From a virus (taxonomy: Duplodnaviria; Caudoviricetes): DNA of 55,816 bases. Positions 485 through 55,816 of the stretch are shown piece after piece. The position numbers and the translations under genes were made by a program. The number at the start of each line of letters is the position of its first letter. Position 1 is the stretch's first letter. A model generated the notes under the pieces. That model had not been told where the DNA came from. It saw only the letters and a list, made by a program, of their open reading frames with translations, and ran no database searches. Where the stretch lies: positions 1-55,816 of IMG/VR virus record IMGVR_UViG_3300029183_000004; one strand, given 5' to 3'.

Positions 485-903
485 TAAGGAAATTTCAGTG
501 CCACAAAGTACCAACCAACAATTTTCCGGATAGATTACAAACACCTTCCGGATCTATATCAGATCTAAAAATCAACTGGGAAGTGTAGTCAAATAGTCCT
601 ACATAAAATGTTAAACCTACATATTGGTATCTATCGGTAGCTAGCTACCATATACAGCAGGCAGGAGAGGAAGGAGAAATAAAGCTGCTTTAGCCATAGT
701 CCCCCCTGTGGTACAATGGATTTACCTGATGATTTTCGAATGGTTCTTACTTGGCCCTCGATAAGTACTCACTTGGATCTAATTTGGTCCTCTCTTGGCC
801 CTCACTTGGCCCTCAGATATAAAGTACCTCATCAGCTACAGACAGCAAACTGACAGACAGCAGTAGGCTTACCGTCCCTACGGACAAACTAAAGATTGAT
901 TTC

Positions 904-936
904 CTTTAAAGTTAATTATATTGATTAACTTTAAAG
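904..936. repeat. 13-bp-arm inverted repeat in primase leader
   Basis: CTTTAAAGTTAAT-7 nt-ATTAACTTTAAAG. Confidence 0.85.
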
Positions 937-992
937 TCGGTTCAATCTCTCTAGTAGACTCAGTATTGAACTCGTTGTTGAACTAGGTAGTA

Positions 993-1012
993 AATTTGTT
1001 CATGAACAAATT
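993..1012. promoter_or_regulatory. Perfect 20-bp palindrome, possible operator upstream of the primase
   Basis: AATTTGTTCATGAACAAATT. Confidence 0.55.
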
Positions 1013-1059
1013 CATGAAATCGTTATTGGAAACTCTATATTTTCTTAGGACGTATACTT

Positions 1060-4000
1060 ATGGCAAAACATTCTGAAATCGTTGCACAGACGATGAAAAC
1101 AAAACCCCCTGTGAATCAATCAACACAGATCAAGGATATCGTTAGATACCTTACGCTCCTTTTTCCACCTGCTAAACCAGAAGCTAAAGCTTCTAGTCCA
1201 AAGACTACTTCAAAAGCTAAATCGAAATCTAATGCTTCTGAAGAATCCGAAATCCTAATTCAGACTTATTGGAAAGATGAAGAATTGGCCCTTAAAAAGG
1301 GGAGTACAGAATACTTCGGCCACCTAGCTACCTTTGATAATGGAGCGAAATCTCTGTCTGACTTTGCCAAATCAATCGTCGACTACTATGTGGAGGCAGA
1401 GCAATCAGAAGAAGGAAAGTACAACAGTATCTTTGCTCGTATGGGGAATGTTTCAGAGCCAAAGTTTCAGTCAGTAACCAAAGAGGATATTGATTCCATT
1501 GGGACATTGTGGGTAGACTTGGATTATCCGCCAGGAGACAAGCCCTCAATTCCCCCTGTGAGTTCATTCTTTCTACCCCCTTCAATGATTGTTGATTCCG
1601 GTAACGGCTATCATTTCTACTGGCTATTAGATTGTCCTACGGATAACCTAGACGCAGTTGAAAGCTTGAATAAGCAATTAGAGACAATCTTTAACTCGGA
1701 TGCTGTCAGCGATGTCACACGGGTATTACGTATCCCAGGAACCTGGAACGCTAAAGATCCGGAGAATCCTCAGCTATGCCAAATACAAAGTTACCCTACA
1801 GGAAAGCCTCATCGTTATACATTAGCAGAAATTGAATCAGTACTACGAAGCCCATTGGCAATTGAAACAAAGTTTAACTACGATACAAAAAAGGAGACTG
1901 ATCGATCAAGTAATGACTTTAATGCCCTTTGCGCACTGCGGAAGGATTATAACTTCACGCTTGAGACCATCATTGCTCTATTGGATTTCAACCCAAAATT
2001 CTCACTAGCGAGAAAGTATTCAGAGCGTGGGGAAAAGTATCTCCAAACACAATGGAAAGCCATTGAAAAGACCAAGCATTATAAAAACGTTACCTTTAAA
2101 GACTCCCAAAATTCCCAAAATAATTCCCAGAATTCCCAGAATTCCCATAATTCAAAATGGGAATCCCAAAATCCTGATCGGGCGGAAGTACCGGAGGATT
2201 CCCGTCTTTATGAATCCCTTCAATTTTTATCAAATGGAAATATTTCTGAGCTTGCACAGTTAAATAGGGAAAATGAAACGTATATAGCATTATTAGATAC
2301 TCAAGCTAAACCTACCATCGGTCTTTATCGTACTAGTCCACCACCAAAGAAGAGCGGTCTTACCTATGTGATAAATGAAATAATCTTTCCTGGCATTATT
2401 ATTCCTCGCTCATCAATATATCTGGGGGACCAATGGCTAGGGTACTATTGTGAGTACTTCACAACCCCCAATGAATCGACAATGATTTACATTCCCGAAA
2501 GTTATTTACTCGGTATTGAATCAAACGCCAACTATTCGAAACTCTTTTCAAAAGTTATTGATCACATCATACCAACTAAATCAAAGAGAGGCATCGTAGG
2601 TGAAACAATTTCGGATTGGCTGTATCGATTAGATAACTTCAAGTCACGAAAGACCTACCCAACAGTAGAAAAGGCACTGGCAAAAGGAATCTACTTCGAC
2701 AAGAAATCCAAAAAGAAATGGCATATCGATAAAACTGAAACCTATAAGGTATCCCTTACTGATACCGGCTTACAGACATCTCCTGTTAGTCCAGGGACAA
2801 TATCGTACGAAGTACGCAACCCCCAAAACATCGGAGACAACTTACTCACAGGGGCATATGAGAAGCAATCTTATTGCAAAGAGGATATCAAAGGATTCAT
2901 TCAGTACTTACTCCCCCTGTGGGAAATCAATCCCGAGGGAATGACCTTAGCATCCTTTGGTTGGGCATTTGCAACCCCTTATAAGCAGGAATTACACTAT
3001 GCCCTTGGAGCAAAATTTCCCTATCTTCATTTACTTGGATCTCAGGATTCCGGTAAATCTGTTTGGGCCAAAGTAACCAAGCATTTAATTGGATTGACCG
3101 GTGATCATGTAAACTCAGGTGCGGCAGATTCCGGATCAGCCTATCGATTGATCAATATTTTTGCTGAATCTTTATCGACTCCGGTCTACCTTGAAGAACT
3201 TCCGGCGGAAAAAGTTGCCAATCATTTAATTGAAAATATCAAAGACTCATACAATATCAATCACATTGTTCGTCGGGGTACACGCCAACAGACCATGAAT
3301 GAGTATCCATTGTGTCGGCCAATATGCATTACCTCAAACATTGAGATTGGGGACAAAGCTGCTAGATCTAGAGGATTACTCTTCAATGTAACTAGAGATC
3401 ATCATACAACAGAAGCCTCAAATCTTTTAGATCTTTTACTTGGACCAACCGATGAACATAATCTAATGTGTCAATTTGGTCTTCAATATACCCTTTGGAC
3501 CATGACACAGGATTGCCAGGAACTTTTTGCAGAGGCACGGCAAATTGTTCAAAAGTATATCGAACACATGCGAGATTTAATATCTGTTCATGAAATGAAC
3601 CATATACTAAGTACTCGACAGCAGCACAATTACGCTGTGGTAATCTTTGGTCTACTATCATTCCGGAAATTCTTAACTGAATACCTTCAATGTGAAGTAC
3701 CCGAAAGATTAAAGTATATTGACTCGCCCGATGTTGTCGGCATGATAACCCAGTATGGAACGACAGAGACTGCCTACAAAGAGAAGGTCCAAGAGGATGA
3801 ATTAAACGACATCTGTTCATTAAACAATTTTCTTCGGTATGTTATTGATCAGATTCTTATCGATGCTATACCCGAAGATCAGCCAAATATTAAAGGAGTT
3901 CAAAATAAATCTGAGAACAACAAATACGTAAGAAAGCCAGGGATAGTAAATTTCCCTTTTCCACATCATCAAGGGAATCAATTTAAAGCCGTTCCAGAAG

Positions 4001-4233
4001 GACAAAAATATGTTCATTTTGCTCAGATAGGGGCTGTTACAGAATATATCGGAATGCTTCGGAAAAGAGGAATAACGGTTCCACAAAATATCTCGCAACA
4101 ACTAAACAAACAGATTAAGGATGAACTAGATAAGAAGAAAGATTCATCGCTAGTTCGACCAACAAGCCCTATTGGTAATAAACCTAATACATGTAGAATG
4201 CTAAGAGTATTTACTGAGAAGTACTTAGACTAA
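1060..4233 (+). CDS. RepB-like (AEP) DNA primase fused to C-terminal P-loop helicase-like domain
   Basis: LWVDLD, IVDSGNGYHFYWLL and DVTRVLRIPGT primase motifs; GSQDSGKS Walker A and VYLEE Walker B. Confidence 0.85.
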   Translation: MAKHSEIVAQTMKTKPPVNQSTQIKDIVRYLTLLFPPAKPEAKASSPKTTSKAKSKSNASEESEILIQTYWKDEELALKKGSTEYFGHLATFDNGAKSLSDFAKSIVDYYVEAEQSEEGKYNSIFARMGNVSEPKFQSVTKEDIDSIGTLWVDLDYPPGDKPSIPPVSSFFLPPSMIVDSGNGYHFYWLLDCPTDNLDAVESLNKQLETIFNSDAVSDVTRVLRIPGTWNAKDPENPQLCQIQSYPTGKPHRYTLAEIESVLRSPLAIETKFNYDTKKETDRSSNDFNALCALRKDYNFTLETIIALLDFNPKFSLARKYSERGEKYLQTQWKAIEKTKHYKNVTFKDSQNSQNNSQNSQNSHNSKWESQNPDRAEVPEDSRLYESLQFLSNGNISELAQLNRENETYIALLDTQAKPTIGLYRTSPPPKKSGLTYVINEIIFPGIIIPRSSIYLGDQWLGYYCEYFTTPNESTMIYIPESYLLGIESNANYSKLFSKVIDHIIPTKSKRGIVGETISDWLYRLDNFKSRKTYPTVEKALAKGIYFDKKSKKKWHIDKTETYKVSLTDTGLQTSPVSPGTISYEVRNPQNIGDNLLTGAYEKQSYCKEDIKGFIQYLLPLWEINPEGMTLASFGWAFATPYKQELHYALGAKFPYLHLLGSQDSGKSVWAKVTKHLIGLTGDHVNSGAADSGSAYRLINIFAESLSTPVYLEELPAEKVANHLIENIKDSYNINHIVRRGTRQQTMNEYPLCRPICITSNIEIGDKAARSRGLLFNVTRDHHTTEASNLLDLLLGPTDEHNLMCQFGLQYTLWTMTQDCQELFAEARQIVQKYIEHMRDLISVHEMNHILSTRQQHNYAVVIFGLLSFRKFLTEYLQCEVPERLKYIDSPDVVGMITQYGTTETAYKEKVQEDELNDICSLNNFLRYVIDQILIDAIPEDQPNIKGVQNKSENNKYVRKPGIVNFPFPHHQGNQFKAVPEGQKYVHFAQIGAVTEYIGMLRKRGITVPQNISQQLNKQIKDELDKKKDSSLVRPTSPIGNKPNTCRMLRVFTEKYLD

Positions 4234-5091: not shown

Positions 5092-5580
5092 ATGATACCC
5101 TTCTATACTTATTACTCTGTCCCTCCGATAAGTGTGGGTCAATCGGAATCTTCCCCAGTTGTCACGATGTTTTTAGATCCAGGCCCAACAACTGGCGTAG
5201 CTGTTACCATAAATACCACTGTAGTTAAAGTCTTAGATTTTCAAGTCGGTGGGCGATACGCTGATTTTTACCGGTTCATAGAGATCATTAACCCGACCAA
5301 AATTGTCTATGAAGGATTCTTCCTTTACCCACGAATGAGCGTAGGTAAAAAGTTTAGTTCCTTACCTGAAGTTGAAATCATTGGGATCATTAAACTCTTT
5401 GCAGATCAACATCAACGGGAGTACCAAACTCATGGTGCATCTCTGATCAAGGATTTCACTAAAAAGGAGGTAGCTAACTACCTTGAATTGCCCTGGGTAG
5501 TAATGAATTCAATATCTAACCATGCTTTTGATGCCTTACGCCATTGTTTCTATTATCAATTAAGGAGTTCACAAGAATGA
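5092..5580 (+). CDS. RuvC-like Holliday junction resolvase (RNase H fold)
   Basis: FLDPGPTTGVA, IVYEGF and HAFDALRH acidic catalytic motifs. Confidence 0.75.
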   Translation: MIPFYTYYSVPPISVGQSESSPVVTMFLDPGPTTGVAVTINTTVVKVLDFQVGGRYADFYRFIEIINPTKIVYEGFFLYPRMSVGKKFSSLPEVEIIGIIKLFADQHQREYQTHGASLIKDFTKKEVANYLELPWVVMNSISNHAFDALRHCFYYQLRSSQE

Positions 5581-7283
5581 TTAAACCTTCACGAAAGATC
5601 ACAAAGCCTATGGAATTACAATGGACCAAACATAATACGGCATGGACCATCAACCCCCCTGTGAGATCTAAGCCAATTCCTGGCGATCAATACCAATCTC
5701 AATTTGATGTCGGGGGGAAAGTTGCTTCTATCTACCCCTCTATTGAAGCCTATGACTCAATTCTTGAACAATATCCCGATATCGAAATCCCAAAAGAGAT
5801 TGAAGAGTGGTACTTTGGTCAGTCAATTATCTTTAGACAACAGCAAAAATTTATTGCTGCCAGAGATCAATTCTATGATTATGAGATGCCCTCGAACAAT
5901 GTCACACTTTATCCACATCAACGGCATACAATTGAATTTCTAAAGCATAATGATCGAGCAATGTGTTTCGATGAAGTGGGACTAGGTAAAACTGTTTCAA
6001 CTTTGGTGGCCCTAACAGACAAGATTGATCGAAAGCAATTCCCAATCAAGATTGTTATTGTCGTTCTGGGGAAGCTTCAAAAGCAATGGAGTAATGAAGT
6101 AGCTCAATGGTTTGGTTTTCCATCTACCGAATTTAATATCTGTAATCGAGCAAAACGAACACGTGAAAATTTATGGGCTGAGTTCTTACAAAATGCTGAC
6201 AACATTTCTATTGCTTATGTTAATTGGGAAGCATTGAAGCTTTTAAATCTTAACTGGGAAGAAGTTAACAATATTCAGTATCTTATTGCAGATGAAGCCC
6301 AAGCTTTGCGTAACCGGAAATCAAAGCAAACAATTGCATTTAAGCAACTGGCAGATAAATCCAAGGTAGTATGGATGTTAACCGGTACGCCATTAGAAAA
6401 AGCACCTCATGAACTTTGGTCTTTGCTCAACATCCTTAATCCAAGATGGTTTCGATCCTACTGGAATTTCTTCAATAGCTTTGTAGATTTTGAACTCACA
6501 GGGGCAGCGGGTTATATAACCCCTGTGGGTGTACGGGAAGAAAGTAAACCAGTCTTACATGAGATTTTGCAAAAGTATTCTGTCCGCCATACTCGTCTAG
6601 AGGAATTTGCAGATCTTAAAGAGGTACAACGAATTTATATTCCTGTATCTTTGACTCGTCAACAGAAAGCCCTGTATAAGGAATTAAAGACTCGAAGCTA
6701 TATTGAACGCTTGAAGCTAGTAATTCCGCATGGTGCTGCTAGATTGCTGCGTATGCGCCAAGTAATCAATTGTCCTACAGCTATTGATCCAGGTATCAAA
6801 AAGCCAGAGCAAGCCAATGCGAAGATTGAAACTGTTCAGGAACTTCTAAGTACAATTCCAGATGCCAATCAGGTAATAATCTTTTGTAGCTTTATCGAAT
6901 CTCTTCGATTACTTGAGCGTACTTGCATCGCAATTCCTTATTATTCAGAAGATCCAGACAAAGAAGAGATACTTCAAGAATTCCAAGCCGGTGAGTTTCA
7001 AGTACTTGCCTGCACCCCCCAATCATTAGGCACCGGTGCCAATCTTCAAAACGCCAACGTAATCATTTACTTTGATGTACCGATATCATCTCTCCAATAC
7101 AAACAAGGCATCGGACGAATTGATAGGATCGGCCAACAAAAGATTCCGTTGGTCTACCATTTAATTGCTGAGGATACTGTTGATGAAGTGATTCACCAGA
7201 TGCTACAGCAAAAAGAAATTGTTTTTGACGAGACAATCCTCACCAATGCCATGCTGAAACAGATTCAAGAAAATGAATCTTGA
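5544..7283 (+). CDS. SNF2-family (SF2) helicase
   Basis: DEVGLGKT, IADEAQ, LTGTP, GTGANLQ and QGIGRIDRIGQ motifs; true start probably ATG 5577. Confidence 0.92.
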   Translation: MFLLSIKEFTRMIKPSRKITKPMELQWTKHNTAWTINPPVRSKPIPGDQYQSQFDVGGKVASIYPSIEAYDSILEQYPDIEIPKEIEEWYFGQSIIFRQQQKFIAARDQFYDYEMPSNNVTLYPHQRHTIEFLKHNDRAMCFDEVGLGKTVSTLVALTDKIDRKQFPIKIVIVVLGKLQKQWSNEVAQWFGFPSTEFNICNRAKRTRENLWAEFLQNADNISIAYVNWEALKLLNLNWEEVNNIQYLIADEAQALRNRKSKQTIAFKQLADKSKVVWMLTGTPLEKAPHELWSLLNILNPRWFRSYWNFFNSFVDFELTGAAGYITPVGVREESKPVLHEILQKYSVRHTRLEEFADLKEVQRIYIPVSLTRQQKALYKELKTRSYIERLKLVIPHGAARLLRMRQVINCPTAIDPGIKKPEQANAKIETVQELLSTIPDANQVIIFCSFIESLRLLERTCIAIPYYSEDPDKEEILQEFQAGEFQVLACTPQSLGTGANLQNANVIIYFDVPISSLQYKQGIGRIDRIGQQKIPLVYHLIAEDTVDEVIHQMLQQKEIVFDETILTNAMLKQIQENES

Positions 7284-7431: not shown

Positions 7432-7761
7432 TTGGAGCCAATAAGTATGGAGAATGTACTATCGACTCAATGGTGGAAAAGAAAAGATTATCAGGAGATT
7501 TTAACCGATTATTTTCGTGGGCAAAAGTGTATACTTTCTCCTGATAATTCAATAGGACACATTGATAAGGTAGTCTTTCAACATCCAGAGAAATCATTCC
7601 CTGATGTAGGAGACCTTCCCCCTAAAGTATTATTTTATATCAATCGTGCAACCGGCGGGATGAGTGTATTTACACATGACAAGTTTTATTTTGCTAATGA
7701 ACAAGTCGAAATGAAGATCAAGGAGCTAACATCTTCTGTAAAGGAATTAACTTATGAATAA
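7432..7761 (+). CDS. Hypothetical protein
   Basis: ORF downstream of promoter, coupled to next gene; start uncertain. Confidence 0.55.
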   Translation: MEPISMENVLSTQWWKRKDYQEILTDYFRGQKCILSPDNSIGHIDKVVFQHPEKSFPDVGDLPPKVLFYINRATGGMSVFTHDKFYFANEQVEMKIKELTSSVKELTYE

Positions 7762-8584
7762 ACCTAAACCTAAGCCTAAACGTGGGGTTGTTAAGCCCGT
7801 AAATAAGGTTCAACCATTTACGCCAATTACTTTTAATGCCTCAATGGAACGAATCACCGCATTTATTTACGGAAGTTCTGGAAGTGGTAAAACCTATATG
7901 CTTCGAACATTGGAGAATATTCCTCAACTTTATCCGGCATTGATTATCGTATGTGACCAAGGACATCTGTCATTAAAAGGGATTGATCAAGGAAAGATTA
8001 CTCTCACTACAGCTACTACATATCAGGAACTCAATGATATCTATGAGTATGCGCTGACTGCCCAGGAGTATAAGACAGTTGTCTTAGACAATATTTCGGA
8101 GTTACACCGGCGATTTTTAATTGACAAAGCAAAGGAGCGAAACAAAGGCAAAGGAAATACAGATCTATTTGGCCTAGTGGAAAACGATTACGGTAATGCC
8201 AGAAGTAAAATCATGGATGTCTTAGCAGGATATGCCTTGAACCTACCTCAGAACGTGATTGTTAATGCCTTATCCCATGAGTATATCGACAATGATACCG
8301 AACGTCGATACATTAAACCTAAACTTTTTGGGCAAGTGGCAGAAGAAGCCCCAGGACTATTTGATTTGGTTGGGTACTTAACAATCTATAATCCAACGGC
8401 GAAGGAAAAGCGTGAAGCACAGCGGCTTAAAAAGGAGATTAAACCAGAACGACAATTATATACCCAAGAAACATCGAAGATCAAAGAGGCACGGATACGT
8501 GGGAACGTCCTCCCCCCTGTGATATCGAATCCCACTTGGGATCTAATCTATACTACTTGGGAAGAAAACTATCTGAAGCTTTAA
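7754..8584 (+). CDS. AAA_24 / Sak4-like P-loop ATPase (phage recombination)
   Basis: IYGSSGSGKT, TVVLDNISE and GLFDLVGYL; adjacent to DUF669 gene. Confidence 0.8.
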   Translation: MNKPKPKPKRGVVKPVNKVQPFTPITFNASMERITAFIYGSSGSGKTYMLRTLENIPQLYPALIIVCDQGHLSLKGIDQGKITLTTATTYQELNDIYEYALTAQEYKTVVLDNISELHRRFLIDKAKERNKGKGNTDLFGLVENDYGNARSKIMDVLAGYALNLPQNVIVNALSHEYIDNDTERRYIKPKLFGQVAEEAPGLFDLVGYLTIYNPTAKEKREAQRLKKEIKPERQLYTQETSKIKEARIRGNVLPPVISNPTWDLIYTTWEENYLKL

Positions 8585-8603
8585 TCCTAAGTAGTTTCAG
8601 GCC

Positions 8604-8658
8604 AAACTCAGTCTAAACTCAGTGTAAATTCAGTCTAAACTCAGACCAAATTCAGTGT
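8604..8658 (+). repeat. Five tandem 11-bp repeats (AAAYTCAGTST consensus) upstream of SSB-like gene
   Basis: AAACTCAGTCT AAACTCAGTGT AAATTCAGTCT AAACTCAGACC AAATTCAGTGT. Confidence 0.9.
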
Positions 8659-8686
8659 AATTTAAGAACTTACTAAGGAAAAGATT

Positions 8687-9373
8687 ATGAAAATCAATTT
8701 TAGCGGTATGAAAACGATGTCTTTCGATCCGGTTCCAGCGGGCTTGTACGAAGTAGCCGTTAGTAAAGTAAAAACGGGTACTTCCACTAGTGGATACGCA
8801 AAGATTGACATTACCTTTGATATTGTGGATGACGGGCAATATAACAAGCGAAAGCTTTTCACAACCTTAACGACTCATCCCAATGCCTTGTGGAAATTCT
8901 ACGAAGGATTAAACGCTTTCGGTTACACAGAGGAAGATCTGGAAGGGGATGAAGAGGGAAACGTTGAATTTGACCCACAGGATCTACTTGAAGCGGGCTG
9001 TTATGCCGATGTCATCATCACTGAGTATCAGGGTAAGGAAAAGAATAGCGTTGAGAAGCTGCGTTCTCATGAGGAAATCGAAGGTCTAAATGCCGAGGAT
9101 GTCGAGATTGAAGAAGATGAGGATTTCTATGACGATCCAGAAGAAGCCTTTGAGGAAGATATCCCCGAAACGGTTAATCTGAATGTAGATGCCTCATCTA
9201 TTCTTTCTCCTGCCGCCAAGCGTGTTCTTCAAGAATATCTTGAAGAGATGGATCGAAGTGAAACGCCAGAGGAAATTGCCGAAGGGATCGAAGGGACCGG
9301 CAAGAATGGTCTGATTACCAAGAAAGATATGCAATATTATCTTGAATCTTGGGAAGGTCATTCGATAGAATAG
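8687..9373 (+). CDS. DUF669-like ssDNA-binding protein with acidic linker and C-terminal E3-binding (PSBD)-like domain
   Basis: FDPVPAGLYEV...YNKRKLF; acidic tract; SPAAKR...IEGTGKNGLITKKD. Confidence 0.75.
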   Translation: MKINFSGMKTMSFDPVPAGLYEVAVSKVKTGTSTSGYAKIDITFDIVDDGQYNKRKLFTTLTTHPNALWKFYEGLNAFGYTEEDLEGDEEGNVEFDPQDLLEAGCYADVIITEYQGKEKNSVEKLRSHEEIEGLNAEDVEIEEDEDFYDDPEEAFEEDIPETVNLNVDASSILSPAAKRVLQEYLEEMDRSETPEEIAEGIEGTGKNGLITKKDMQYYLESWEGHSIE

Positions 9374-9403: not shown

Positions 9404-9431
9404 CTCACAGGGGTAATTAAACCCCTGTGAG
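9404..9431. terminator. Intergenic hairpin made of two inverted motif copies
   Basis: CTCACAGGGGT-AATTAA-ACCCCTGTGAG; no U-tract, so function uncertain. Confidence 0.45.
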
Positions 9432-12736: not shown

Positions 12737-13248
12737 TGCAAAACGTATCTTGGATTAACCTAGTAAATTTAGAGAACTATTTTCGTAGAAATACCCCCGA
12801 ATGGCCTATCCCCTGTGAAATGGATGCCGTACTATTTTCGCTATCCGAAGTGATAGAATTTATTGAAGCTTATCATCTACGCCAAAATGAAAAGTACTTA
12901 CGTACCAATAATCGGGATCCTGAAATCGAGAAGGAATTAACCCAAGTAGCAATGATGATCTGTACATCTATAGTCTTACAATCACGTCCAATCAAGTCAG
13001 TATCTCTAAGCACCGATCAGCGGAATGTACTTTTATTCTGTATGGCGATAATCAAAAATCTGATTGAAGTACTTGAACGACAGATTGTTAATGCTACTCC
13101 CAATATTCCCAATGAAAAAGATAGCTTTTTACTTGGGGCATTAACTTCCTGTATCGAAATAGCCGATATCTTGGACGTAGATCTTGCCGAACAATTACTA
13201 ATTGAACATGAACGTATCATCGAGAAGATTAACTCACAGGGGGAATAA
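12736..13248 (+). CDS. Putative MazG-like all-alpha NTP pyrophosphohydrolase
   Basis: SEVIEFIEA...IEKELTQV helical acidic pattern; nucleotide-metabolism context. Confidence 0.4.
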   Translation: MQNVSWINLVNLENYFRRNTPEWPIPCEMDAVLFSLSEVIEFIEAYHLRQNEKYLRTNNRDPEIEKELTQVAMMICTSIVLQSRPIKSVSLSTDQRNVLLFCMAIIKNLIEVLERQIVNATPNIPNEKDSFLLGALTSCIEIADILDVDLAEQLLIEHERIIEKINSQGE

Positions 13249-43825: not shown

Positions 43826-44151
43826 TATTCCCCCTGTGAGCCTAATCTTTTTATCTCAAATTCAATGTACTGTTTTGCCTTTTCCAAATCCTGAATAATA
43901 TCTACTCCAGGCTTATTATTAGCTCGCCATAAATGCTTTATTGCTGTTCCAATATTAAATGGAAACCACTGTATAATATCAATGCATTCAACGCCAGAAG
44001 GATGTTTATTATAATGCTTCGGGTGATTAACGAACTCATACCCCATAGCATCATTGATAAGAGAAACTTGTCGTACAGAACATCCATTTTCTGGATATTT
44101 CACAGGGGGTAAATTTTCATTTATCGCCTGAATAAGACTTGTATCATGCAT
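43825..44151 (-). CDS. DUF3310 family protein
   Basis: VNHPKHYN, ECIDII, FNIGTAIKHLWRA and DLEKAKQYI. Confidence 0.88.
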   Translation of the reverse strand: MHDTSLIQAINENLPPVKYPENGCSVRQVSLINDAMGYEFVNHPKHYNKHPSGVECIDIIQWFPFNIGTAIKHLWRANNKPGVDIIQDLEKAKQYIEFEIKRLGSQGE

Positions 44152-47907: not shown

Positions 47908-50598
47908 TTAAATCCCTATCACAACAACTTTTTTATTTGCCAACATACCAAGGTCTTTACCAGCATAATAACATGCATCGACAAGATCAAAGGGTTTCTT
48001 CACTGGAAAACGTTTTAATGCCTTCTCTAATACTTTGTGGGTGCCTTCTACATGGATAAATCTACCAAAATCATAAGCACTGCGCATTTTATTAGCTCTG
48101 GCAACTTTATCCCCCATACTCTTAGTTGCTTTTACATGACTCACAGGGGGTATTCGTGTATGTTTTGTAACCTGGGGATGCGCTTTAGACTTAAGTAAAT
48201 TTGCCCAAGCTTCCCGATAAACACTATCCCAGGTATCTCCGCCTTGATTCGTTTCAATTAGAATCTTAGTTACACCTAAGTCTAAGGCTTTTACAAAAGC
48301 ATGTTCAAAGGTTTCCACAGGTGAAGCTTGTTTTTCCCAAGAATACAATCGATAAATCAATTGAGTTACAGGATCCAATCCATCTATTTGAATACCCTGA
48401 CAATCAGAATTATCATTACTTGTCACAGCAGGATCAATTACCAGAACAATCTTTGATAGGGGAGGAACATCTTTTGCAAGGCATTGCTTGAATGTTTCAG
48501 CATCAAAGATACCGCCATCGGCTTCTTCGACCTCATGTTGACTTTCTTCTAGGAAGGCAGCTAAACCCCAATCATTCATTTGTTGTTGGCAAATTTCTAG
48601 ATTTTGCCCTTCCCAAGAGGGTTTTCCCCCTGTGATATAGTAGATATTTCTTGAGTGTTCTTCACTCCAAGAGGATTCATATTCTAAGTCATGCACCGCC
48701 GGAATAGGCCCAGAGCGTTGACGTGTTTGTAAAAACGTAGCATCATTTCCGATCAATTGGGAAAATATCCCATTTTCCAAAATCATATTTTGGATCATAA
48801 GAAGCGCACAATCGGCACTTCCAGCAGGATAGATACTCTTACGTAAAACGGCAAGCTTCTTCTCGGTTGTCTTTTCAGTATCAAGAACATCGTCTAAATC
48901 ATCCCCAACCATAAAGTCGGGACGAAGATCCAAATACTTTGTCCCACGTTCTGCACCTAATAAACCGAGGGCATCTAGGACAAAACCATTATTGCATATC
49001 AATCGATTCCGCCGCCATCCCTTAGCTTGACCATATTTTGATACTGCCCTTTGGGACATTGCTGGATAGAATTTCGCAAAATTTTCATCCTCAAGTAATG
49101 CCCCAATTGTTTCAACATGCTTATCCGCCAAGTCTTGTGTGAGTGAAATATACCAACCATACTTACGTACTTTTCTAGCACCTAAGTTAATCGCTAAAAA
49201 TTCCGCTGTACTACTGTTATGTGTGATAAGTTTATCACAAACAAAATTTGAATTATGTGAAACTTCAATATCATATGTAGCTTGTTGGCCCTGAGATTCT
49301 ATCCCGACAATTTTATCCCAAAAAATATCAGCATTTTCTAATTTATCCCACAGGGGGATATTTACATATTGTTGACTTCTTTGGATTTTATCTCTAGTAA
49401 TAGAATATTGAGGAACTAAACGTATACCTTTTGCACGTAGGTATCTATTTGTCCCTCTTGGCAGGTTTTGTACCACCTCCCCAGGGTAAATATCAAATAA
49501 GCTATACCGTTTCTTAGCTGTTAATCTTTGTAATCTATTTTTCTTTAGTTTTAAAGGTAGGTTCTTTTGACACAATTCAAAACAATTATTATCTACATGT
49601 AATGCCCAAGATCCTGCAAATTCATTAGGTTTATAGATAATATTAGAAAGTACCCCGACATGTAAAAATAATCGTTGGATTTGTTTCACTAGGTGTTCAT
49701 TTGCCAATGCAATACCTAGTTTTCTATGTTCGATATAGCCATCTGTATCAATTAAACTAGCTAATAGCAACCATTTTTGTCTTACAGGGAGAAAGAAAAC
49801 CCAGTCGGGTAGTAGTTTAGTTAATGCCGTATGTCCCCACAAACCAACAGATCTTAGCCATTGCCGACCATTACCTGTTAAACACCACTCATTTTCTCGA
49901 TAACTAGCATATGTAATACCTAGATCATCACAGCATGTTTTAAAATCTTGAACAATTATTTGATCATGATTAGTAAAAGAAGATTTTCTATTGGTACATC
50001 CTTCTGCAACCATATAACCCAAGAGCAAAATTTCACTATCGAGCCTAATTTCATCTGTACATGAAGGAAGAGATCGAACACAAGCAATACGATCATTAAC
50101 AGTAAGATCTTGAATGTCTTTCCATCCATTAAAAGTTAAAACAGGGTGATCTTGACTACCAGTTAAGATTTGATTTGTTGCAGTGCGAACTTGATATACA
50201 TCTTTGACACCTGAATACCATTTATTGATTACAGTAGACTTTTCTTGTTTCCAATTGGATTGATTTATTGATACTATTTCATCCCCAATATTCAGATCAA
50301 CTAAATCTACTTCCTCACCTGAAAAGAGAGAAATACGACTTGTACCCAATAGGCATTTCCCCCCACCCCTAGGCCAGACTGCTACAAAAGGATTAGGACG
50401 AATCTTAGGTTGAATATTATATCCCCAATCCCAAAGGTCACAATGGTGATCAGCAAAATTATCGTCAATGTAACTTCCGAATATCGTCAGAAGCCAATCA
50501 CGCCAATTTGTAGGTGCTTCATAAAAGCCCTTTGATTCCGCAGAAGATTGAATCCCTTTATATAACCTTGTTTTTCTACCACCTAAAACATCATACAT
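47908..50598 (-). CDS. terL: Terminase large subunit with intein
   Basis: PRGGGK|SST Walker A, RPDFMVGDD, VIDPA, ETNQGG and DLVDA. Confidence 0.93.
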   Translation of the reverse strand: MYDVLGGRKTRLYKGIQSSAESKGFYEAPTNWRDWLLTIFGSYIDDNFADHHCDLWDWGYNIQPKIRPNPFVAVWPRGGGKCLLGTSRISLFSGEEVDLVDLNIGDEIVSINQSNWKQEKSTVINKWYSGVKDVYQVRTATNQILTGSQDHPVLTFNGWKDIQDLTVNDRIACVRSLPSCTDEIRLDSEILLLGYMVAEGCTNRKSSFTNHDQIIVQDFKTCCDDLGITYASYRENEWCLTGNGRQWLRSVGLWGHTALTKLLPDWVFFLPVRQKWLLLASLIDTDGYIEHRKLGIALANEHLVKQIQRLFLHVGVLSNIIYKPNEFAGSWALHVDNNCFELCQKNLPLKLKKNRLQRLTAKKRYSLFDIYPGEVVQNLPRGTNRYLRAKGIRLVPQYSITRDKIQRSQQYVNIPLWDKLENADIFWDKIVGIESQGQQATYDIEVSHNSNFVCDKLITHNSSTAEFLAINLGARKVRKYGWYISLTQDLADKHVETIGALLEDENFAKFYPAMSQRAVSKYGQAKGWRRNRLICNNGFVLDALGLLGAERGTKYLDLRPDFMVGDDLDDVLDTEKTTEKKLAVLRKSIYPAGSADCALLMIQNMILENGIFSQLIGNDATFLQTRQRSGPIPAVHDLEYESSWSEEHSRNIYYITGGKPSWEGQNLEICQQQMNDWGLAAFLEESQHEVEEADGGIFDAETFKQCLAKDVPPLSKIVLVIDPAVTSNDNSDCQGIQIDGLDPVTQLIYRLYSWEKQASPVETFEHAFVKALDLGVTKILIETNQGGDTWDSVYREAWANLLKSKAHPQVTKHTRIPPVSHVKATKSMGDKVARANKMRSAYDFGRFIHVEGTHKVLEKALKRFPVKKPFDLVDACYYAGKDLGMLANKKVVVIGI
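49216..50355 (-). mobile_element. Intein (380 aa) with LAGLIDADG endonuclease in terminase Walker A
   Basis: GGK|CLLGTS...SQDH...GYMVAEG...SLIDTDG...ITHN|SST. Confidence 0.95.
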
Positions 50599-51230: not shown

Positions 51231-51455
51231 TTATCTCACAGGGGAATTAAACAATTCAGCGTTTTCTTGGATATAAGCTTCCGGAAAGGGTTTATAAACT
51301 AATCGACGTTGGGCATCCTTATAGGTTACAATGATTGTCTCGGTAGCGCCAAGTACAAATTGAATATTTGCCTTCACTCTTACTTCGTTCTCTAAAGTTA
51401 AAAGAATTTTAACTCCTTCTTTCAGTTGATCCTTTGACATACATCTACACCCCAC
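51231..51455 (-). CDS. Hypothetical protein
   Basis: Short ORF co-oriented upstream of terS. Confidence 0.5.
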   Translation of the reverse strand: MGCRCMSKDQLKEGVKILLTLENEVRVKANIQFVLGATETIIVTYKDAQRRLVYKPFPEAYIQENAELFNSPVR

Positions 51456-51888: not shown

Positions 51889-52030
51889 TTATCCTCCTTC
51901 GTATAATCATCCATGAATCGATTCTAGCATACACAATCAGGTAGCACAACAGATCCCCCTGTGAAATATTTAGTAGGGATATCTGCCTACGACAAATGAC
52001 GTATTTTTCAAAAAATCGAAAATTGGGGGG

Positions 52031-52749: not shown

Positions 52750-52792
52750 TTATTTCACAGGGGGATTGAAAAATCCCCTCAAAGGATCAACT

Positions 52793-53912: not shown

Positions 53913-54353
53913 ATGAAAATATTACTTATTACGCTTTTACTTCCACTCATCTTATCCCCAATCTCACAGGGGGGATACGTTTCAATATCATCCGAATTGA
54001 ATGATCTATGTTTAACGCAAGATACCCCTGTGAGATTAGAGACTTGTGACACTGGCCGATTAGTTCAGCATTGGCAAATATCAAAACAAGGAACAGCTCA
54101 TATTATCCGTTCTGGTTGGAATAGCGAATGTTTGACCGTTGCCAGGAACCAAAAGCCCATTACCTATCGTTGCCGAAATCTTCGATCTCAACGATTTGAT
54201 ATCGTAGCTAATGATTGGGGCAAGGGCTTTCAAATTCAATTGCAGAGATCAGATCTATGTCTTGATGTCGTTGACTGGCAAATAAAAGATCCGGCAGCAC
54301 TTCAATTCTATCAATGTCACATCGGGATCAATCAGCAGTTTTCAGGAGGATAA
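53913..54353 (+). CDS. Secreted ricin-B (beta-trefoil) lectin
   Basis: Signal peptide; three CL...C....Q-x-W/F repeats (QHW, QRF, QQF). Confidence 0.85.
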   Translation: MKILLITLLLPLILSPISQGGYVSISSELNDLCLTQDTPVRLETCDTGRLVQHWQISKQGTAHIIRSGWNSECLTVARNQKPITYRCRNLRSQRFDIVANDWGKGFQIQLQRSDLCLDVVDWQIKDPAALQFYQCHIGINQQFSGG

Positions 54354-54361
54354 AAAAGAAG

Positions 54362-54390: not shown

Positions 54391-54466
54391 GTCGGTATTA
54401 ACCCAATCCGAAGTGTTTCCTTGGAATCAGAATTAGTTAAGAATCACATTCTAGCATAGAAGAAAC

Positions 54467-54500
54467 AAAAAGCCAATCCCCATTAGAGGATTGGCTTTTT
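54467..54500. terminator. Bidirectional terminator between convergent operons
   Basis: AAAAGCCAATCC-8 nt-GGATTGGCTTTT. Confidence 0.8.
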
Positions 54501-54560
54501 GCCACAAAGGATCTACCTATGGCCTACCATGTTACTATACTCACAGGGGATTGAAAAATC

Positions 54561-54851
54561 TTAGATTGGTTGATACCTCAACTGGCGATCTAACTGTGGA
54601 CAAATCCCCCGTTCGTCACACAGTATCTTTCTACGCATTTCCTCACAGTAGCCATACATAGCTTTGACCGTCATTGGAATAGCTGTCTTATGTAACAGAT
54701 AAACCTTTGCCATCCCAGCCATACAACCACGTATAAATGCCGGTCCAAGGTCTGTATAGTTTAGCTCAGTATCCTGTATCGTTGCCGTGTACTCCTGTGA
54801 GTAACATCCCGTTAACAACAATAAGATGACAATATAGATTTTATAGTTCAT
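54561..54851 (-). CDS. Putative lipoprotein
   Basis: AAGGA RBS; MNYKIYIVILLLLTG|C lipobox. Confidence 0.65.
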   Translation of the reverse strand: MNYKIYIVILLLLTGCYSQEYTATIQDTELNYTDLGPAFIRGCMAGMAKVYLLHKTAIPMTVKAMYGYCEEMRRKILCDERGICPQLDRQLRYQPI

Positions 54852-54899
54852 AACAACATCCTTTGATGAGGGAACATATCTCACCAACCAAATTATATG

Positions 54900-55433
54900 T
54901 CAAGTTGAATCGGGATCAAAGTCTCTTCCTACTTTATAAGCTTCTAGAAGCTTATCAGGAGATTCGAAGCTACTACCCTTAGCGATGATGGTTGGAACTA
55001 GTTCGTATTCCCGAAGGTTAAATCGAACCGTTTCCTTCCCTCCCCCAAGGAAATAAACGATTCCATGATAATCAGGATGTATCAATAAAGAAATACAATC
55101 TATTGACGGAACGCCAGAACAAATGACTACTCGTTGCTGTGTCCTCCGTGCAAGCCATTCCGCCTTAACGATCTCTTGTTTCGTCGGATAGTTCCCTTTA
55201 ACTTCCAACCAAAGTTTTGACTGGGGAAGAAAGAAATCAGGTAAATAAGGTCGCATACGATTTTGCCAGAAGTACTTAACTGTATGCCGTTCATATTGAA
55301 ATTCTATCCCTAAGGTCTCAAACATCTTTACATACCGAACTTCAAGAACAGATGCATAGATAATGTTCTTATATGTATAAAGTCTACTCCTTGGCATATT
55401 ACGAAAGTTAACCTTCATTTGATTTGATTCCAA
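54900..55433 (-). CDS. PD-(D/E)XK endonuclease (T7 endonuclease I-like)
   Basis: ASVLE, QYE, YLPDFFLP and WLEVKG. Confidence 0.8.
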   Translation of the reverse strand: MESNQMKVNFRNMPRSRLYTYKNIIYASVLEVRYVKMFETLGIEFQYERHTVKYFWQNRMRPYLPDFFLPQSKLWLEVKGNYPTKQEIVKAEWLARRTQQRVVICSGVPSIDCISLLIHPDYHGIVYFLGGGKETVRFNLREYELVPTIIAKGSSFESPDKLLEAYKVGRDFDPDST

Positions 55434-55816
55434 TCTAAAATTTCCGATATCTTCGGTACACTTGCTTCACACTCACAGGGGGTATAATCAATTGGCAAGC
55501 CCCAGCAACCACAGTCAACTCCGTTACAGCAATGCTTCGCTTCTAATCCATAGCCATTACATTTATCACATGCATTGGGATCTAAGTTTTTGGGTGCATT
55601 ACACATGGCTGTCATGAACTCCCCAAAATCTGTCTCCTTATAGATCATGACTTTAGCTATATTACTATGGTAGCTTTTCTCTATAAGTTCCTCCACTGTG
55701 ATATGTTGCATTACATAGTGAATCATCAAAGTTAATACCTCAACAGGGAAGCTACCTTCCATCCACAATTGACCAGTATGGCCGTGTTCACAACTACATC
55801 GAATCTTACCTTCCCC
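55415..55816 (-). CDS. Cys-rich hypothetical protein, probably 5'-truncated by the window edge
   Basis: Frame is open to 55816 (GEGKIRCSCEHGH...); CDKCNG and CCNGVDCGC. Confidence 0.55.
   Translation of the reverse strand, partial: GEGKIRCSCEHGHTGQLWMEGSFPVEVLTLMIHYVMQHITVEELIEKSYHSNIAKVMIYKETDFGEFMTAMCNAPKNLDPNACDKCNGYGLEAKHCCNGVDCGCWGLPIDYTPCECEASVPKISEILDWNQIK

What the first reader, a model, noticed from the sequence alone, without database searches (positions are those of the whole stretch)
703..55481. Genome-wide, >100-fold over-represented motif CCCCTGTGR: an uptake-sequence-like code written through a phage genome
Seen: at least 72 exact CCCCTGTG/CACAGGGG copies by eye (39 +, 33 -; about one per 780 bp). 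Examples start at 703, 1106, 1553, 2847, 5656, 8514, 12112, 16630, 20791, 28981, 36910, 43831, 48142 and 54025. The ninth base was a purine in the copies I checked, and CCCCTGTGAG is the commonest extension. At ~38% GC an independent-base estimate gives about 0.5 copies. Most copies lie in genes and are read in different frames (PPV/TPV, PCE, PLW, SQG, LTG/ITG/TTG), so no single peptide explains them. There is no strand polarity. Known analogues are Neisseria/Pasteurellaceae uptake sequences, cyanobacterial HIP1, Chi and KOPS/SRS; this sequence matches none that I know. Inference: it is a binding or recognition site used at genome scale, for example for DNA coating/protection, translocation, priming, self-marking, or mimicry of a host uptake or Chi signal. 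This is my best candidate for an undescribed system.
Basis: partly seen in the sequence, partly recalled or inferred. Interest (0 to 1): 0.93.

Follow-up and report, generated by a model that had tools for sequence, protein, structure and literature searches.

The report
Phage genome studded with one 9-base word
A phage genome from an aquatic sample carries one exact 9-base word about every 1.5 kb on each DNA strand, kept by selection even inside genes, and the word looks most like a private start signal for the phage's own DNA primase.

Summary
CCCCTGTG occurs 72 times (39 +, 33 -) in 55,816 bases, against 0.85 expected in dinucleotide shuffles. All 72 copies are followed by a purine. One-mismatch variants stay at background (22 over 24 words).

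It survives a shuffle that keeps every protein and each gene's codon usage: mean 10.5, of which 8 are fixed non-coding copies. 64 of 116 synonymous chances are used.

Contigs from four sequencing runs of one study reproduce the sequence.

A relative at 74% DNA identity has the same density. It keeps 11 of 17 aligned sites, against a 12.7% baseline.

Copies on each strand are spaced more evenly than if strand labels were random (P 0.0015). So the word is read strand-specifically.

I found no host or other phage lineage with this word in the searches run. A distantly related phage has its own word of the same build, CCCTGGGT plus purine.

Best reading, about 35%: a primase start cassette. The 3' end, GTGA or GTGG, is the published recognition motif of AEP prim-pols, and the phage encodes a RepB/AEP-type primase.

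Rivals are a Chi-like nuclease signal, an FtsK/TraB-type loading word, and an uptake-like site. The function is untested.

The parts
703..710 (+). word copy CCCCTGTG
1106..1113 (+). word copy
1553..1560 (+). word copy
2847..2854 (-). word copy
2914..2921 (+). word copy
5656..5663 (+). word copy
6497..6504 (-). word copy (inverted pair with 6520)
6520..6527 (+). word copy
8514..8521 (+). word copy
9406..9413 (-). word copy, intergenic (inverted pair with 9422)
9422..9429 (+). word copy, intergenic, just upstream of the PolA start
9888..9895 (+). word copy
11166..11173 (+). word copy inside the PolA intein
12112..12119 (+). word copy
12669..12676 (-). word copy
12810..12817 (+). word copy
13235..13242 (-). 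word copy; its G-run sits where a ribosome-binding site would be for the gene starting at 13248
13696..13703 (+). word copy
14522..14529 (+). word copy
16128..16135 (-). word copy
16630..16637 (+). word copy
16726..16733 (-). word copy
17638..17645 (-). word copy
17842..17849 (+). word copy
18388..18395 (-). word copy
19419..19426 (-). word copy
19661..19668 (-). word copy
19794..19801 (+). word copy
20791..20798 (+). word copy
20970..20977 (-). word copy
21156..21163 (+). word copy
22126..22133 (+). word copy
22159..22166 (-). word copy
23480..23487 (+). word copy inside an HNH endonuclease gene
24644..24651 (+). word copy
25509..25516 (+). word copy
26233..26240 (+). word copy
27026..27033 (-). 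word copy
28288..28295 (-). word copy inside an HNH endonuclease gene
28981..28988 (+). word copy
31507..31514 (-). word copy, conserved in relative L118
31993..32000 (+). word copy, absent at the aligned place in L118
32173..32180 (+). word copy, intergenic
33338..33345 (+). word copy
33579..33586 (-). word copy, conserved in L118
34179..34186 (-). word copy, conserved in L118
34639..34646 (+). word copy
35164..35171 (-). word copy
36776..36783 (+). word copy, absent at the aligned place in L118
36910..36917 (-). word copy, intergenic, conserved in L118
37546..37553 (+). word copy, conserved in L118
38770..38777 (-). word copy, absent in L118
38787..38794 (+). word copy; L118 differs by one synonymous base
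39595..39602 (+). word copy, conserved in L118 (inverted pair with 39620)
39620..39627 (-). word copy at a gene edge, conserved in L118
40688..40695 (+). word copy in the capsid gene, conserved in L118
43067..43074 (-). word copy; L118 has the same peptide without the word
43831..43838 (+). word copy; its complement's G-run sits before the start at 43825
44101..44108 (-). word copy
45330..45337 (-). word copy, conserved in L118
45370..45377 (+). word copy, conserved in L118
46381..46388 (-). word copy
48142..48149 (-). word copy, absent in L118 (amino acids differ)
48627..48634 (+). word copy, conserved in L118
49349..49356 (-). word copy inside the TerL intein
51237..51244 (-). word copy just upstream of the TerS start
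51956..51963 (+). word copy
52756..52763 (-). word copy, intergenic, before the start at 52766
53965..53972 (-). word copy
54025..54032 (+). word copy
54542..54549 (-). word copy, intergenic
55474..55481 (-). word copy
1060..4233 (+). Primase-helicase, 1057 aa. Proposed reader of the word; this is inferred, not shown.
   Evidence: PHROG DNA primase / polymerase-primase families, E 3e-8 to 1e-7. Pfam RepB_primase E 1e-3, 19.5 bits, below its 24.3-bit cut-off. Homologues P0393 and P0394 carry PF16793, and P0393 also D5_N. tblastn to annotated phage primases. ESM Atlas lead to AEP clusters.
16221..18059 (+). FtsK/TraB-like DNA translocase, 612 aa. It has one predicted membrane helix and a C-terminal three-helix domain. 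Rival candidate reader.
   Evidence: Pfam FtsK_SpoIIIE 3e-16. AlphaFold model pLDDT 83.8. Foldseek to the E. coli FtsK motor 2ius, E 1e-22. C-terminal domain without a significant fold match.
9449..12736 (+). DNA polymerase A with an intein and a LAGLIDADG endonuclease (replication module)
5544..7283 (+). SNF2-family helicase (replication module)
7754..9373 (+). AAA_24 ATPase and DUF669 protein (my reading: a recombination/ssDNA-binding pair, recalled)

Best explanation
The word is a strand-specific start cassette for the phage's own primase.

Read as template, 5'-CCCC-T-GTG-R-3' has two parts:
- GTG plus a purine at the 3' end is a recognition element that is bound but not copied.
- CCCCT just upstream is copied. 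Synthesis starts with A opposite the invariant T and runs over the four C's, giving a primer 5'-AGGGG. About half of the copies add a further G.

The phage replisome moves in both directions over the genome. So each strand needs such a cassette at Okazaki-fragment spacing, about 1.4-1.7 kb. Selection has written it into genes wherever the protein allows, and sometimes at the cost of an amino-acid change.

Shown:
- the enrichment, exactness and conservation of the word;
- the even supply on each strand separately;
- the presence of a RepB/AEP-type primase gene;
- the identity of the word's 3' end with published AEP prim-pol recognition motifs.

Inferred: that this primase reads this word, where synthesis starts, and the primer sequence.
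For: 1. Anatomy of the word.
- Eight invariant bases are followed by a purine in 72 of 72 copies. Then comes G in 44 of 72 and A in 40 of 72.
- The 3' end is therefore GTGA (55 copies) or GTGG (17 copies).
- Passages of PMC8718748 say that pRN1 ORF904 recognises 5'-GTG-3' through its helix-bundle domain. They say the phage NrS-1 prim-pol works best on 5'-GTGA-3' and 5'-GTGG-3'. [quoted passage not shown]
- Here that base is the invariant T, so the first nucleotide would be A.
- T7's extended sites have the same logic: an uncopied 3' base plus a fixed G/C-rich primer template, 5'-GGGTC-3' giving pppACCC (passages of PMC2910064).

2. A primase of the right kind is encoded at 1060-4233.

3. Strand-specific, even supply.
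- Mean gaps are 1,403 bases on the + strand and 1,645 on the - strand.
- Per-strand CV is 0.61 (P 0.0004) and 0.66 (P 0.011).
- Per-strand regularity beats random strand labels on the same positions (P 0.0015).
- Orientations alternate more than chance: 46 runs against 36.7 +/- 4.2 (P 0.018).

4. The word is private to the lineage.
- It is present at like density in relative L118: 25 copies in 18.4 kb.
- It is absent from 44 other capsid relatives, which have 0-4 copies each.
- It was not found enriched in any other locus returned by the pattern scans.

5. A second phage. G001 encodes a Pfam Prim-Pol and has a word of the same build.
- The core CCCTGGGT occurs 37 times and is followed by a purine in 37 of 37 copies.
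- 27 of 37 copies read ...GTG, and 21 of those 27 are then followed by a purine.
- It shows the same per-strand regularity (P 0.0055).
Against: - Known AEP primases need only GTG. Why five more bases should be invariant is unexplained, unless the primer sequence itself must be fixed.
- I noticed the GTGR match after reading the paper, so it is post hoc. The chance of GTG at that place is about 1 in 64, but I compared the word with several other known words too.
- The primase's AEP membership is weak. Pfam RepB_primase is below its cut-off. AEP-TOTE and PriCT_1 (the helix-bundle family) gave no match in the six-frame search. There was no PDB sequence hit.
- Two isolated phages with the nearest primase homologues that I examined have no dispersed word: Oceanotoga phage UFV02 and Synechococcus phage Ssp-JY40, 2 of 2.
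- There is no clear switch of strand at an origin: two-arc test P 0.84, only a weak gradient.
- In G001, 10 of 37 copies end GTA rather than GTG, and the base just upstream of GTG is G, not T.
Confidence: 0.35

Rival explanations
1. Chi-like signal. The word is what the host's RecBCD or AddAB helicase-nuclease recognises on one strand. A dense supply in both orientations protects a circularly permuted or concatemeric phage genome from degradation starting at any end.
For: - The reading is strand-specific, both orientations are needed, and each strand is evenly supplied.
- The core is 8 bases, and its complement is G-rich at the 3' end, as in E. coli Chi (the Chi sequence is in the abstract of 10.1101/2021.07.08.451572).
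- Phages are known to over-represent host Chi (passages of PMC3784561).
- The record has no terminal repeat, and run contigs go on past the window's end. That fits permuted ends.
Against: - Known Chi enrichment in phages is an observed/expected ratio of about 2-5 and about 0.2 per kb. Here it is 1.29 per kb with a ratio above 40.
- In that study the enrichment was strongest in phages without recombinases. This phage has an AAA_24/DUF669 pair, which I read (recalled) as a recombinase module.
- No genome with the word was found. The inverted-pair probe would miss a Chi that does not form pairs, so this is weak.
- No other phage lineage in IMG/VR showed the word in the scans run.
- It does not explain the invariant purine or the GTGR end.
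Confidence: 0.2
2. Loading word for the phage's own FtsK/TraB-like DNA pump (16221-18059). Members of that family read 8-base words: KOPS and SRS (both recalled), and the 8-bp repeats of Streptomyces clt. The membrane-anchored pump would then recognise phage DNA anywhere along it.
For: - The core is exactly 8 bases.
- The gene encodes a true FtsK-type motor: Foldseek to 2ius, E 1e-22, TM 0.70-0.73 on the target.
- It has a predicted membrane helix and a confident extra C-terminal three-helix domain, conserved in its closest homologues.
- TraB reads direct 8-bp repeats with its C terminus (passage of PMC4447253).
Against: - The C-terminal domain has no significant fold match: best E 1.5, and no FtsK gamma chain among the rows shown.
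- Pfam FtsK_gamma is absent, and the profile search of PDB listed no gamma-domain chain.
- The second word-bearing phage, G001 (90% complete by CheckV), has no FtsK-family gene.
- Known words of this family are polar or local, not evenly spread in both orientations.
- A site on double-stranded DNA does not explain per-strand regularity unless orientation sets direction.
Confidence: 0.1
3. Uptake-sequence-like or other orientation-free site on double-stranded DNA. A host or phage protein binds the word wherever it lies, for uptake, coating, compaction or titration of a host factor.
For: Density of about 1 per 0.78 kb, near-equal strands, copies inside genes in many frames, and some inverted pairs. 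These features resemble what I recall of Neisseria DUS and Haemophilus USS.
Against: - Per-strand regularity exceeds random strand labelling (P 0.0015). An orientation-free site does not predict this.
- Inverted pairs within 45 bases are not more frequent than chance: 6 against 4.05 expected, P 0.22.
- One-mismatch copies are at background. As I recall, uptake sequences leave many decayed copies.
- No genome among the 185,579 species representatives scanned showed extra copies around any of the 85 inverted-pair matches.
Confidence: 0.08
4. By-product of a biased mutation or repair process, such as very-short-patch-type correction toward one word, without a function for the word itself.
For: The sharpness of the word, with neighbours not enriched, could in principle come from directed correction.
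Against: - A drive of that kind gives modest enrichment (recalled), not 72 copies against about 1.
- It would not space copies evenly on each strand.
- I found no methyltransferase or Vsr-like gene among the ORFs I scanned. Not every small ORF was scanned.
Confidence: 0.05

Closest known systems
Recognition sites of AEP prim-pols (pRN1 ORF904 5'-GTG-3'; phage NrS-1 5'-GTGA/GTGG-3' and 5'-TTTGGTTA-3')
   Same: The word ends in GTGA or GTGG. The base just upstream, where NrS-1 prim-pol starts, is an invariant T, which gives a purine start. The phage encodes a RepB/AEP-type primase.
   Different: Here nine bases are fixed rather than three or four, and the word is over-represented more than 40-fold and evenly spaced on each strand. 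For NrS-1 the authors say GTG sites far outnumber TTTGGTTA sites in its genome, and suggest the 8-base site may serve initiation at a specific site. No biochemistry exists for this phage.
Extended primase sites of phage T7 (5'-GGGTC-3' and relatives)
   Same: An uncopied 3' recognition part plus a fixed template for a short G/C-rich primer that begins with A (passages of PMC2910064).
   Different: T7 primase is of the DnaG/TOPRIM type with a zinc-binding domain.
Uptake sequences (Neisseria DUS, Pasteurellaceae USS); their features are recalled here, not taken from a call
   Same: About one copy per kb, both strands, written through genes in several frames.
   Different: Those are host-chromosome words read by the competence machinery. 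Here the word is in a phage, no host with it was found, decayed copies are lacking, and the strand matters.
Chi sites and their enrichment in phages
   Same: An 8-base, strand-specific word that would be useful in both orientations on a genome with variable ends.
   Different: The known phage enrichment is 2- to 5-fold at about 0.2 per kb, against 1.29 per kb here. No host is known.
FtsK-family words (KOPS and SRS, recalled; TraB 8-bp clt repeats)
   Same: An 8-base core, and an FtsK-type pump encoded by the phage.
   Different: No gamma-type reading head was detected. There is no polarity and no local clustering.
Stoperators of L5-like mycobacteriophages (recalled)
   Same: Tens of copies of one asymmetric word across a phage genome.
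   Different: As I recall, stoperators are 13 bases long, lie mostly between genes, are oriented with transcription, and are read by a repressor. Here 64 of 72 copies are inside genes and sense/antisense is 35/29.

Membership tests
Primase recognition/start sites (AEP prim-pol type) | The element encodes a primase of the AEP/RepB superfamily | tested here: inconclusive
   PHROG primase families, E 3e-8 to 1e-7. Homologues carry PF16793 RepB_primase. The protein's own Pfam match is below the cut-off (19.5 against 24.3 bits). AEP-TOTE and PriCT_1 gave no match. The ESM Atlas gives a lead only.
Primase recognition/start sites (AEP prim-pol type) | The site contains the recognised triplet (GTG, best with a following purine), with the start base just upstream | tested here: met
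   72 of 72 copies read T-GTG-R. The motif and the start rule come from passages of PMC8718748.
Primase recognition/start sites (AEP prim-pol type) | Sites supplied on the lagging-strand template at Okazaki-fragment spacing | tested here: inconclusive
   Per-strand mean gaps are 1.40 and 1.65 kb and significantly even. There is no origin-centred switch of strand: two-arc P 0.84, with a weak gradient at P 0.042.
Primase recognition/start sites (AEP prim-pol type) | Primer synthesis starts at the site in vitro or in vivo | not testable with these tools
   Needs the protein, or infected cells.
DNA uptake sequences (DUS/USS) | The same word at like density in the host chromosome | tested here: not met
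   Of the 85 stretches matching the inverted-pair probe in 185,579 species representatives, none shows further copies in its flanks. Among 401 cyanobacterial genomes the maximum is 32 copies of the 10-mer per genome. The host is unknown, so this is not exhaustive.
DNA uptake sequences (DUS/USS) | Orientation-free reading on double-stranded DNA | tested here: not met
   Strand labels are not random with respect to spacing (P 0.0015).
Chi | A word over-represented and strand-skewed in the host genome, read by RecBCD/AddAB | not testable with these tools
   The host is not identified. The probes used would miss a word that does not form inverted pairs.
FtsK-family recognition words (KOPS/SRS/TRS) | A translocase with a C-terminal winged-helix (gamma) reading head | tested here: inconclusive
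   The motor fold is present. Pfam FtsK_gamma is absent. The C-terminal three-helix domain has no significant match.
FtsK-family recognition words (KOPS/SRS/TRS) | Polar (skewed) or locally clustered distribution | tested here: not met
   39 + and 33 - copies, alternating and evenly spread.
HIP1-type iterated palindromes of cyanobacteria | A palindromic word shared with a cyanobacterial host | tested here: not met
   The word is not a palindrome. No enrichment of like density in the 401 cyanobacterial genomes sampled.
Stoperator-type repressor sites | One orientation relative to transcription, mostly between genes | tested here: not met
   35 sense and 29 antisense copies; 64 of 72 lie inside genes.

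The most novel reading that the evidence does not exclude
Some phages write a private, strand-specific 'priming code' through their whole genome. This is a 9-base cassette (recognition GTG-purine plus a fixed primer template) on each strand about every 1.5 kb. Lagging-strand synthesis by the phage's own primase then works only on DNA that carries the lineage's word. Different lineages use different words: CCCCTGTGR here, CCCTGGGTR in G001. This would be a new layer of self versus non-self in phage replication, and a strong constraint on protein-coding sequence.
Probability: 0.3. Interest if true: 0.85.

Novelty: new variant of a known kind. Interest (0 to 1): 0.78.

Why it matters
A 9-base word kept at more than 40 times its expected number shows a DNA-level requirement strong enough to override codon choice and sometimes protein sequence. 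It is exact, evenly spaced on each strand, and written through the genes of a lytic-looking phage.

If the primase reading is right:
- It would be the first case I know of where a primase's full start site is long and is selected genome-wide.
- It would give a directly testable specificity (oligonucleotide priming assays).
- It would give a way to read replication requirements from sequence alone.

A second phage with a different word of the same build suggests a wider class that a k-mer survey of viral contigs could reveal.

My searches of the paper library found no description of it. These were, and the literal word. The library lacks most subscription journals, and I could not see supplements.

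Tried and rejected
Host and kin searches that found nothing useful
- megablast of window 1-25000 against isolated phages: no match.
- Portal, primase and FtsK-like proteins as single queries in IMG/VR: no relatives. The FtsK subfamily alignment: none.
It is not exhaustive.
- The contig of the closest ThyA homologue, P0121 (65% identity, 14.6 kb), is not in IMG/VR. So the replication half of a relative could not be read.
- ThyA homologues gave no clear host signal: 45-50% identity to Paenibacillus, Spirochaetes and Patescibacteria entries.
- No tRNA genes.
- No RNA holder was listed among the sequencing runs.

Association tests that did not support a reader
- Streptomyces phage Dagobah (capsid 50% identical to G001's) has neither word nor a strong one of its own.
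- Oceanotoga phage UFV02 and Synechococcus phage Ssp-JY40, the nearest primase hits examined, have none.

How common such words are
- Two screens used a Poisson test against an order-3 Markov expectation. One covered the loci of at least 6 kb held. The other covered 76 further viral loci of at least 8 kb (1.34 Mb).
- Only the window, L118 and G001 stood out. L004 (ATAGATAA, 17 copies) came far behind.
- High counts in L132/L134, L143 and L252/L255 are tandem or protein-repeat arrays, not dispersed words.

Other points
- FtsK reading head: not shown.
- Inverted pairs as a feature: not above chance.
- Rejected ideas: promoters or terminators (64 of 72 copies inside genes, both orientations); one peptide motif (five frames); assembly artefact; composition or codon usage.
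- Supplementary tables of PMC3784561 (Tables S1-S5) and of the primase papers were not seen. They may hold per-phage Chi counts or site lists that bear on the comparisons.

Full report
WHAT THE WINDOW IS

The window is the whole of one virus record: 55,816 bases in one contig, 38.8% G+C. IMG/VR classes its ends as linear, and CheckV estimates it 60% complete. It has no terminal direct repeat of 12 bases or more. Contigs of the sequencing runs go on past its right end. So it may be incomplete or circularly permuted.

It is a tailed phage.
- Replication module on the + strand:
  - primase-helicase, 1060-4233;
  - SNF2 helicase, 5544-7283;
  - AAA_24 ATPase and DUF669 protein, 7754-9373;
  - DNA polymerase A with an intein, 9449-12736;
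  - thymidylate synthase, 14184-15515;
  - FtsK-like translocase, 16221-18059.
- Structural module, mostly on the - strand:
  - tape measure, 28540-31062;
  - HK97-type capsid, 40182-41048;
  - portal, 45071-47740;
  - large terminase with an intein, 47908-50598;
  - small terminase, 50591-51223.

There are no tRNA genes and no near relative among isolated phages.

Shuffles give 0.85. Markov models of order 0 to 3 expect 0.56 to 1.67.

- All 72 copies are followed by a purine: A in 55, G in 17.
- The next base is G in 44 copies, and the base before the word is C in 36.
- The 24 one-mismatch neighbours of the 8-mer together occur only 22 times, which is about background.

COMPOSITION, CODONS AND ASSEMBLY DO NOT EXPLAIN IT

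With my own set of 74 ORFs, 64 copies lie inside genes. They are spread over five of the six frames and encode PV, PCE, PLW, SQG or TG contexts.
- A shuffle of synonymous codons within each gene keeps every protein and each gene's codon usage. It gives 10.5 copies on average (max 15 in 300 shuffles).
- A shuffle of codon order gives 8.6.
- Both figures include the 8 copies outside genes, which were held fixed.

Of 116 places where the encoded peptide would allow the word by synonymous change alone, 64 carry it.

Contigs assembled separately from four runs of one aquatic-metagenome study reproduce window 36001-55816 almost letter for letter. Two of those runs may be the source of the record.

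THE WORD IS UNDER SELECTION IN THE LINEAGE

The capsid protein has one close relative, at 84% identity, on IMG/VR contig L118/G002 (19.5 kb). The next relatives are at about 60%.
- L118 aligns with window 50536 to 30485 at 74.2% DNA identity and carries 25 copies in 18.4 kb. The other 44 capsid relatives have 0 to 4 copies.
- Of 17 window copies in aligned columns, 11 are intact in L118. Only 12.7% of all aligned 8-base windows are fully conserved (binomial P 8e-7).
- Conservation is raised only from position -1 to +8 of the word.
- There is also turnover. Six aligned copies are in the window only and seven in L118 only, and both genomes have copies in DNA that does not align.
- About half of these lineage-specific copies differ from the other genome only by synonymous changes over the word. 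The rest involve amino-acid changes.
- Inteins and homing-endonuclease genes carry the word at 0.92 per kb, against 1.33 per kb elsewhere.

At large scale there is no polarity: cumulative range P 0.63 and best two-arc split P 0.84. There is only a weak gradient, with (+,-) by quartile of 13/5, 11/9, 10/8, 5/11 (Mann-Whitney P 0.042).

The spacing, however, is not random.
- All copies together have CV 0.79 (P 0.022), or 0.70 after merging pairs closer than 45 bases (P 0.0006). Orientations alternate more than chance (46 runs against 36.7 +/- 4.2, P 0.018).
- Each strand taken alone is even more regular. The + strand has a mean gap of 1,403, CV 0.61 (P 0.0004) and a largest gap of 3,329 (P 0.002). 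The - strand has a mean gap of 1,645 and CV 0.66 (P 0.011).
- With positions kept and strand labels permuted, the mean per-strand CV is 0.84 against 0.635 observed (P 0.0015).

An orientation-free site on double-stranded DNA would not need this. Something reads each strand and needs a copy about every 1.5 kb.

NO HOST AND NO OTHER LINEAGE WITH THE WORD

- I probed 185,579 species representatives with an inverted pair of the 10-mer. It gave 85 stretches, many of them one recurrent Prevotella hairpin. None has further copies in up to 8 kb of flank.
- The converse pair in IMG/VR gave 8 stretches, and only the L118 contig is enriched.
- Among 401 cyanobacterial genomes the highest count of the 10-mer is 32 per genome. 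That is about a hundredfold below the phage's density.

The host remains unknown, so a host signal is not excluded.

A SECOND PHAGE WITH A WORD OF THE SAME BUILD

By chance, one locus fetched by the pattern scan belongs to a different phage: G001, 42.7 kb, 50% G+C, 90% complete.
- It carries ACCCAGGG 37 times and CACCCAGGG 27 times (16 forward, 11 reverse). The reversed control word occurs 0 times.
- Written on the other strand, the word is CCCTGGGT followed by a purine in 37 of 37 copies.
- It shows the same per-strand regularity (P 0.0055).
- G001 shares only polymerase A, the SNF2 helicase, portal and capsid with the window, at 21-27% identity.
- It encodes a Pfam Prim-Pol and an AAA_25 helicase and has no FtsK-family gene.

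In the screens of the other fetched loci, nothing else approached these densities.

HOW IT MOST LIKELY WORKS

Read as a template, the window's word is CCCC-T-GTG-R.

What the papers say:
- Passages of PMC8718748 report that the AEP prim-pol of plasmid pRN1 recognises 5'-GTG-3' through its helix-bundle domain.
- They report that the prim-pol of phage NrS-1 works best on 5'-GTGA-3' and 5'-GTGG-3', and that it also uses an 8-base site.
- Passages of PMC2910064 describe the same logic in T7: an uncopied 3' base plus a fixed template, 5'-GGGTC-3', for the primer pppACCC.

Applied here, synthesis would start with A opposite the invariant T and copy the C-run, giving AGGGG.

The window's ORF 1060-4233 is a primase by several lines of evidence:
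- PHROG families;
- tblastn to annotated phage primases;
- homologues that carry Pfam RepB_primase and D5_N;
- an ESM Atlas lead to AEP clusters.

This reading explains the invariant purine, the invariant T, the strand-specific even supply at Okazaki-fragment scale, the privacy of the word, and the presence of prim-pol-type primases in both word-bearing phages. In G001, 27 of 37 copies read ...GTG, and 21 of those are followed by a purine.

WHAT SPEAKS AGAINST IT

- The match to GTGR was noticed after the fact.
- Known AEP primases need only GTG.
- The protein's own Pfam match is below its cut-off.
- AEP-TOTE, PriCT_1 and PDB sequence searches gave nothing.
- Two isolated phages with the nearest primase homologues have no dispersed word.
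- There is no origin-centred strand switch.
- G001 fits only partly: 10 of 37 copies end GTA, and the base before GTG is G.

I therefore give this reading about 35%.

RIVALS

A Chi-like signal for a host helicase-nuclease also fits a strand-specific, two-orientation, evenly spaced 8-base word. But the known Chi enrichment in phages is 2- to 5-fold at about 0.2 per kb, and no host is in hand.

A loading word for the phage's own FtsK/TraB-like pump is attractive. That family reads 8-base words (TraB passage), and the gene encodes a true FtsK motor with an extra C-terminal domain. But that domain matched no reading head, and G001 lacks such a gene.

An uptake-like, orientation-free site is disfavoured by the strand result. 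A pure mutational drive is disfavoured by the size of the effect and by the spacing.

VERDICT

The finding is real, strong and unusual.
- What is shown: a private, exact 9-base word, maintained by selection on each strand of a phage genome, with a parallel in a second phage.
- What is inferred: that it is the start cassette of the phage's primase.

Compared with known primase sites it would be a new variant: much longer, and selected genome-wide. If another reader is responsible, it could be something not yet described.

Noticed in passing
window 41053-41910 (ORF 41147-41803, - strand): The major capsid gene is split. Relatives have capsid proteins of about 470 aa. L118 runs straight from the place matching window 41910 to the place matching 41053. 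The window has an extra ~858 bases there that hold a LAGLIDADG endonuclease ORF, which looks like an intron with a homing endonuclease. No copy of the word lies in it.
   Followed up: partly
window 49218-50356 and 11018-11996: Inteins with LAGLIDADG domains sit in the large terminase and in DNA polymerase A. L118 lacks the terminase insert. Each intein holds one copy of the word.
   Followed up: partly
window 14184-15515 (residues about 126-280): The thymidylate synthase carries an in-frame insert that matches HNH endonuclease families. Its closest homologue, P0121, is 262 aa, the usual length without such an insert.
   Followed up: no
window 13248-13790, 22912-23670, 27900-28598 and the ThyA insert: There are four members of one HNH endonuclease family (phrog_374/3377/8790). 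Two of them are free-standing on the strand opposite to the surrounding structural genes.
   Followed up: no
G001 = IMG/VR contig behind L253 (L256-L258): An unrelated 42.7-kb phage has its own dispersed word: ACCCAGGG 37 times, with its complement followed by a purine in 37 of 37 copies. It is evenly supplied on each strand. Its capsid is 50% identical to that of Streptomyces phage Dagobah, which lacks the word.
   Followed up: partly
loci L164-L241 (genome contigs): A near-identical hairpin recurs in many Prevotella and Prevotellaceae genome assemblies, several times in some of them. It is two inverted copies of the 10-mer around a short GACAGAC-like loop. It looks like a family-specific repeated hairpin element.
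   Followed up: no
window, whole: The hexamer ATCAAT/ATTGAT is the commonest 6-mer, with 174 copies. It stays above a synonymous-codon shuffle (mean 108.7, max 126 in 100 shuffles). GATC occurs 303 times against about 196 expected from base frequencies.
   Followed up: partly
window 13220-13250, 43825-43850, 52740-52768; and 9422-9451, 36890-36917, 51223-51244: Some copies double as translation-start context. Three genes have ...CACAGGGGG followed by 0-4 bases and the start codon. Three others (polymerase A, the gene 36516-36890, small terminase) have the word in sense orientation 14-20 bases before the start.
   Followed up: no
G047, G048, G059 (cyanobacterial genomes): Three of the 401 cyanobacterial genomes hold 21-32 copies of CCCCTGTGAG, against 0-1 of the reversed control word. 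This is a mild enrichment, far below the phage's density.
   Followed up: no
L004 (IMG/VR contig of 170 kb): ATAGATAA occurs 17 times, dispersed over 12.3 kb, against 0.88 expected. It may be a promoter-type word of a large phage.
   Followed up: no
window 36001-55816, runs X1 and X2: Besides the identical contigs, the runs hold contigs of a second, more distant relative that fit the window only in short patches. These are the joints at 85% likeness in table 5.
   Followed up: no
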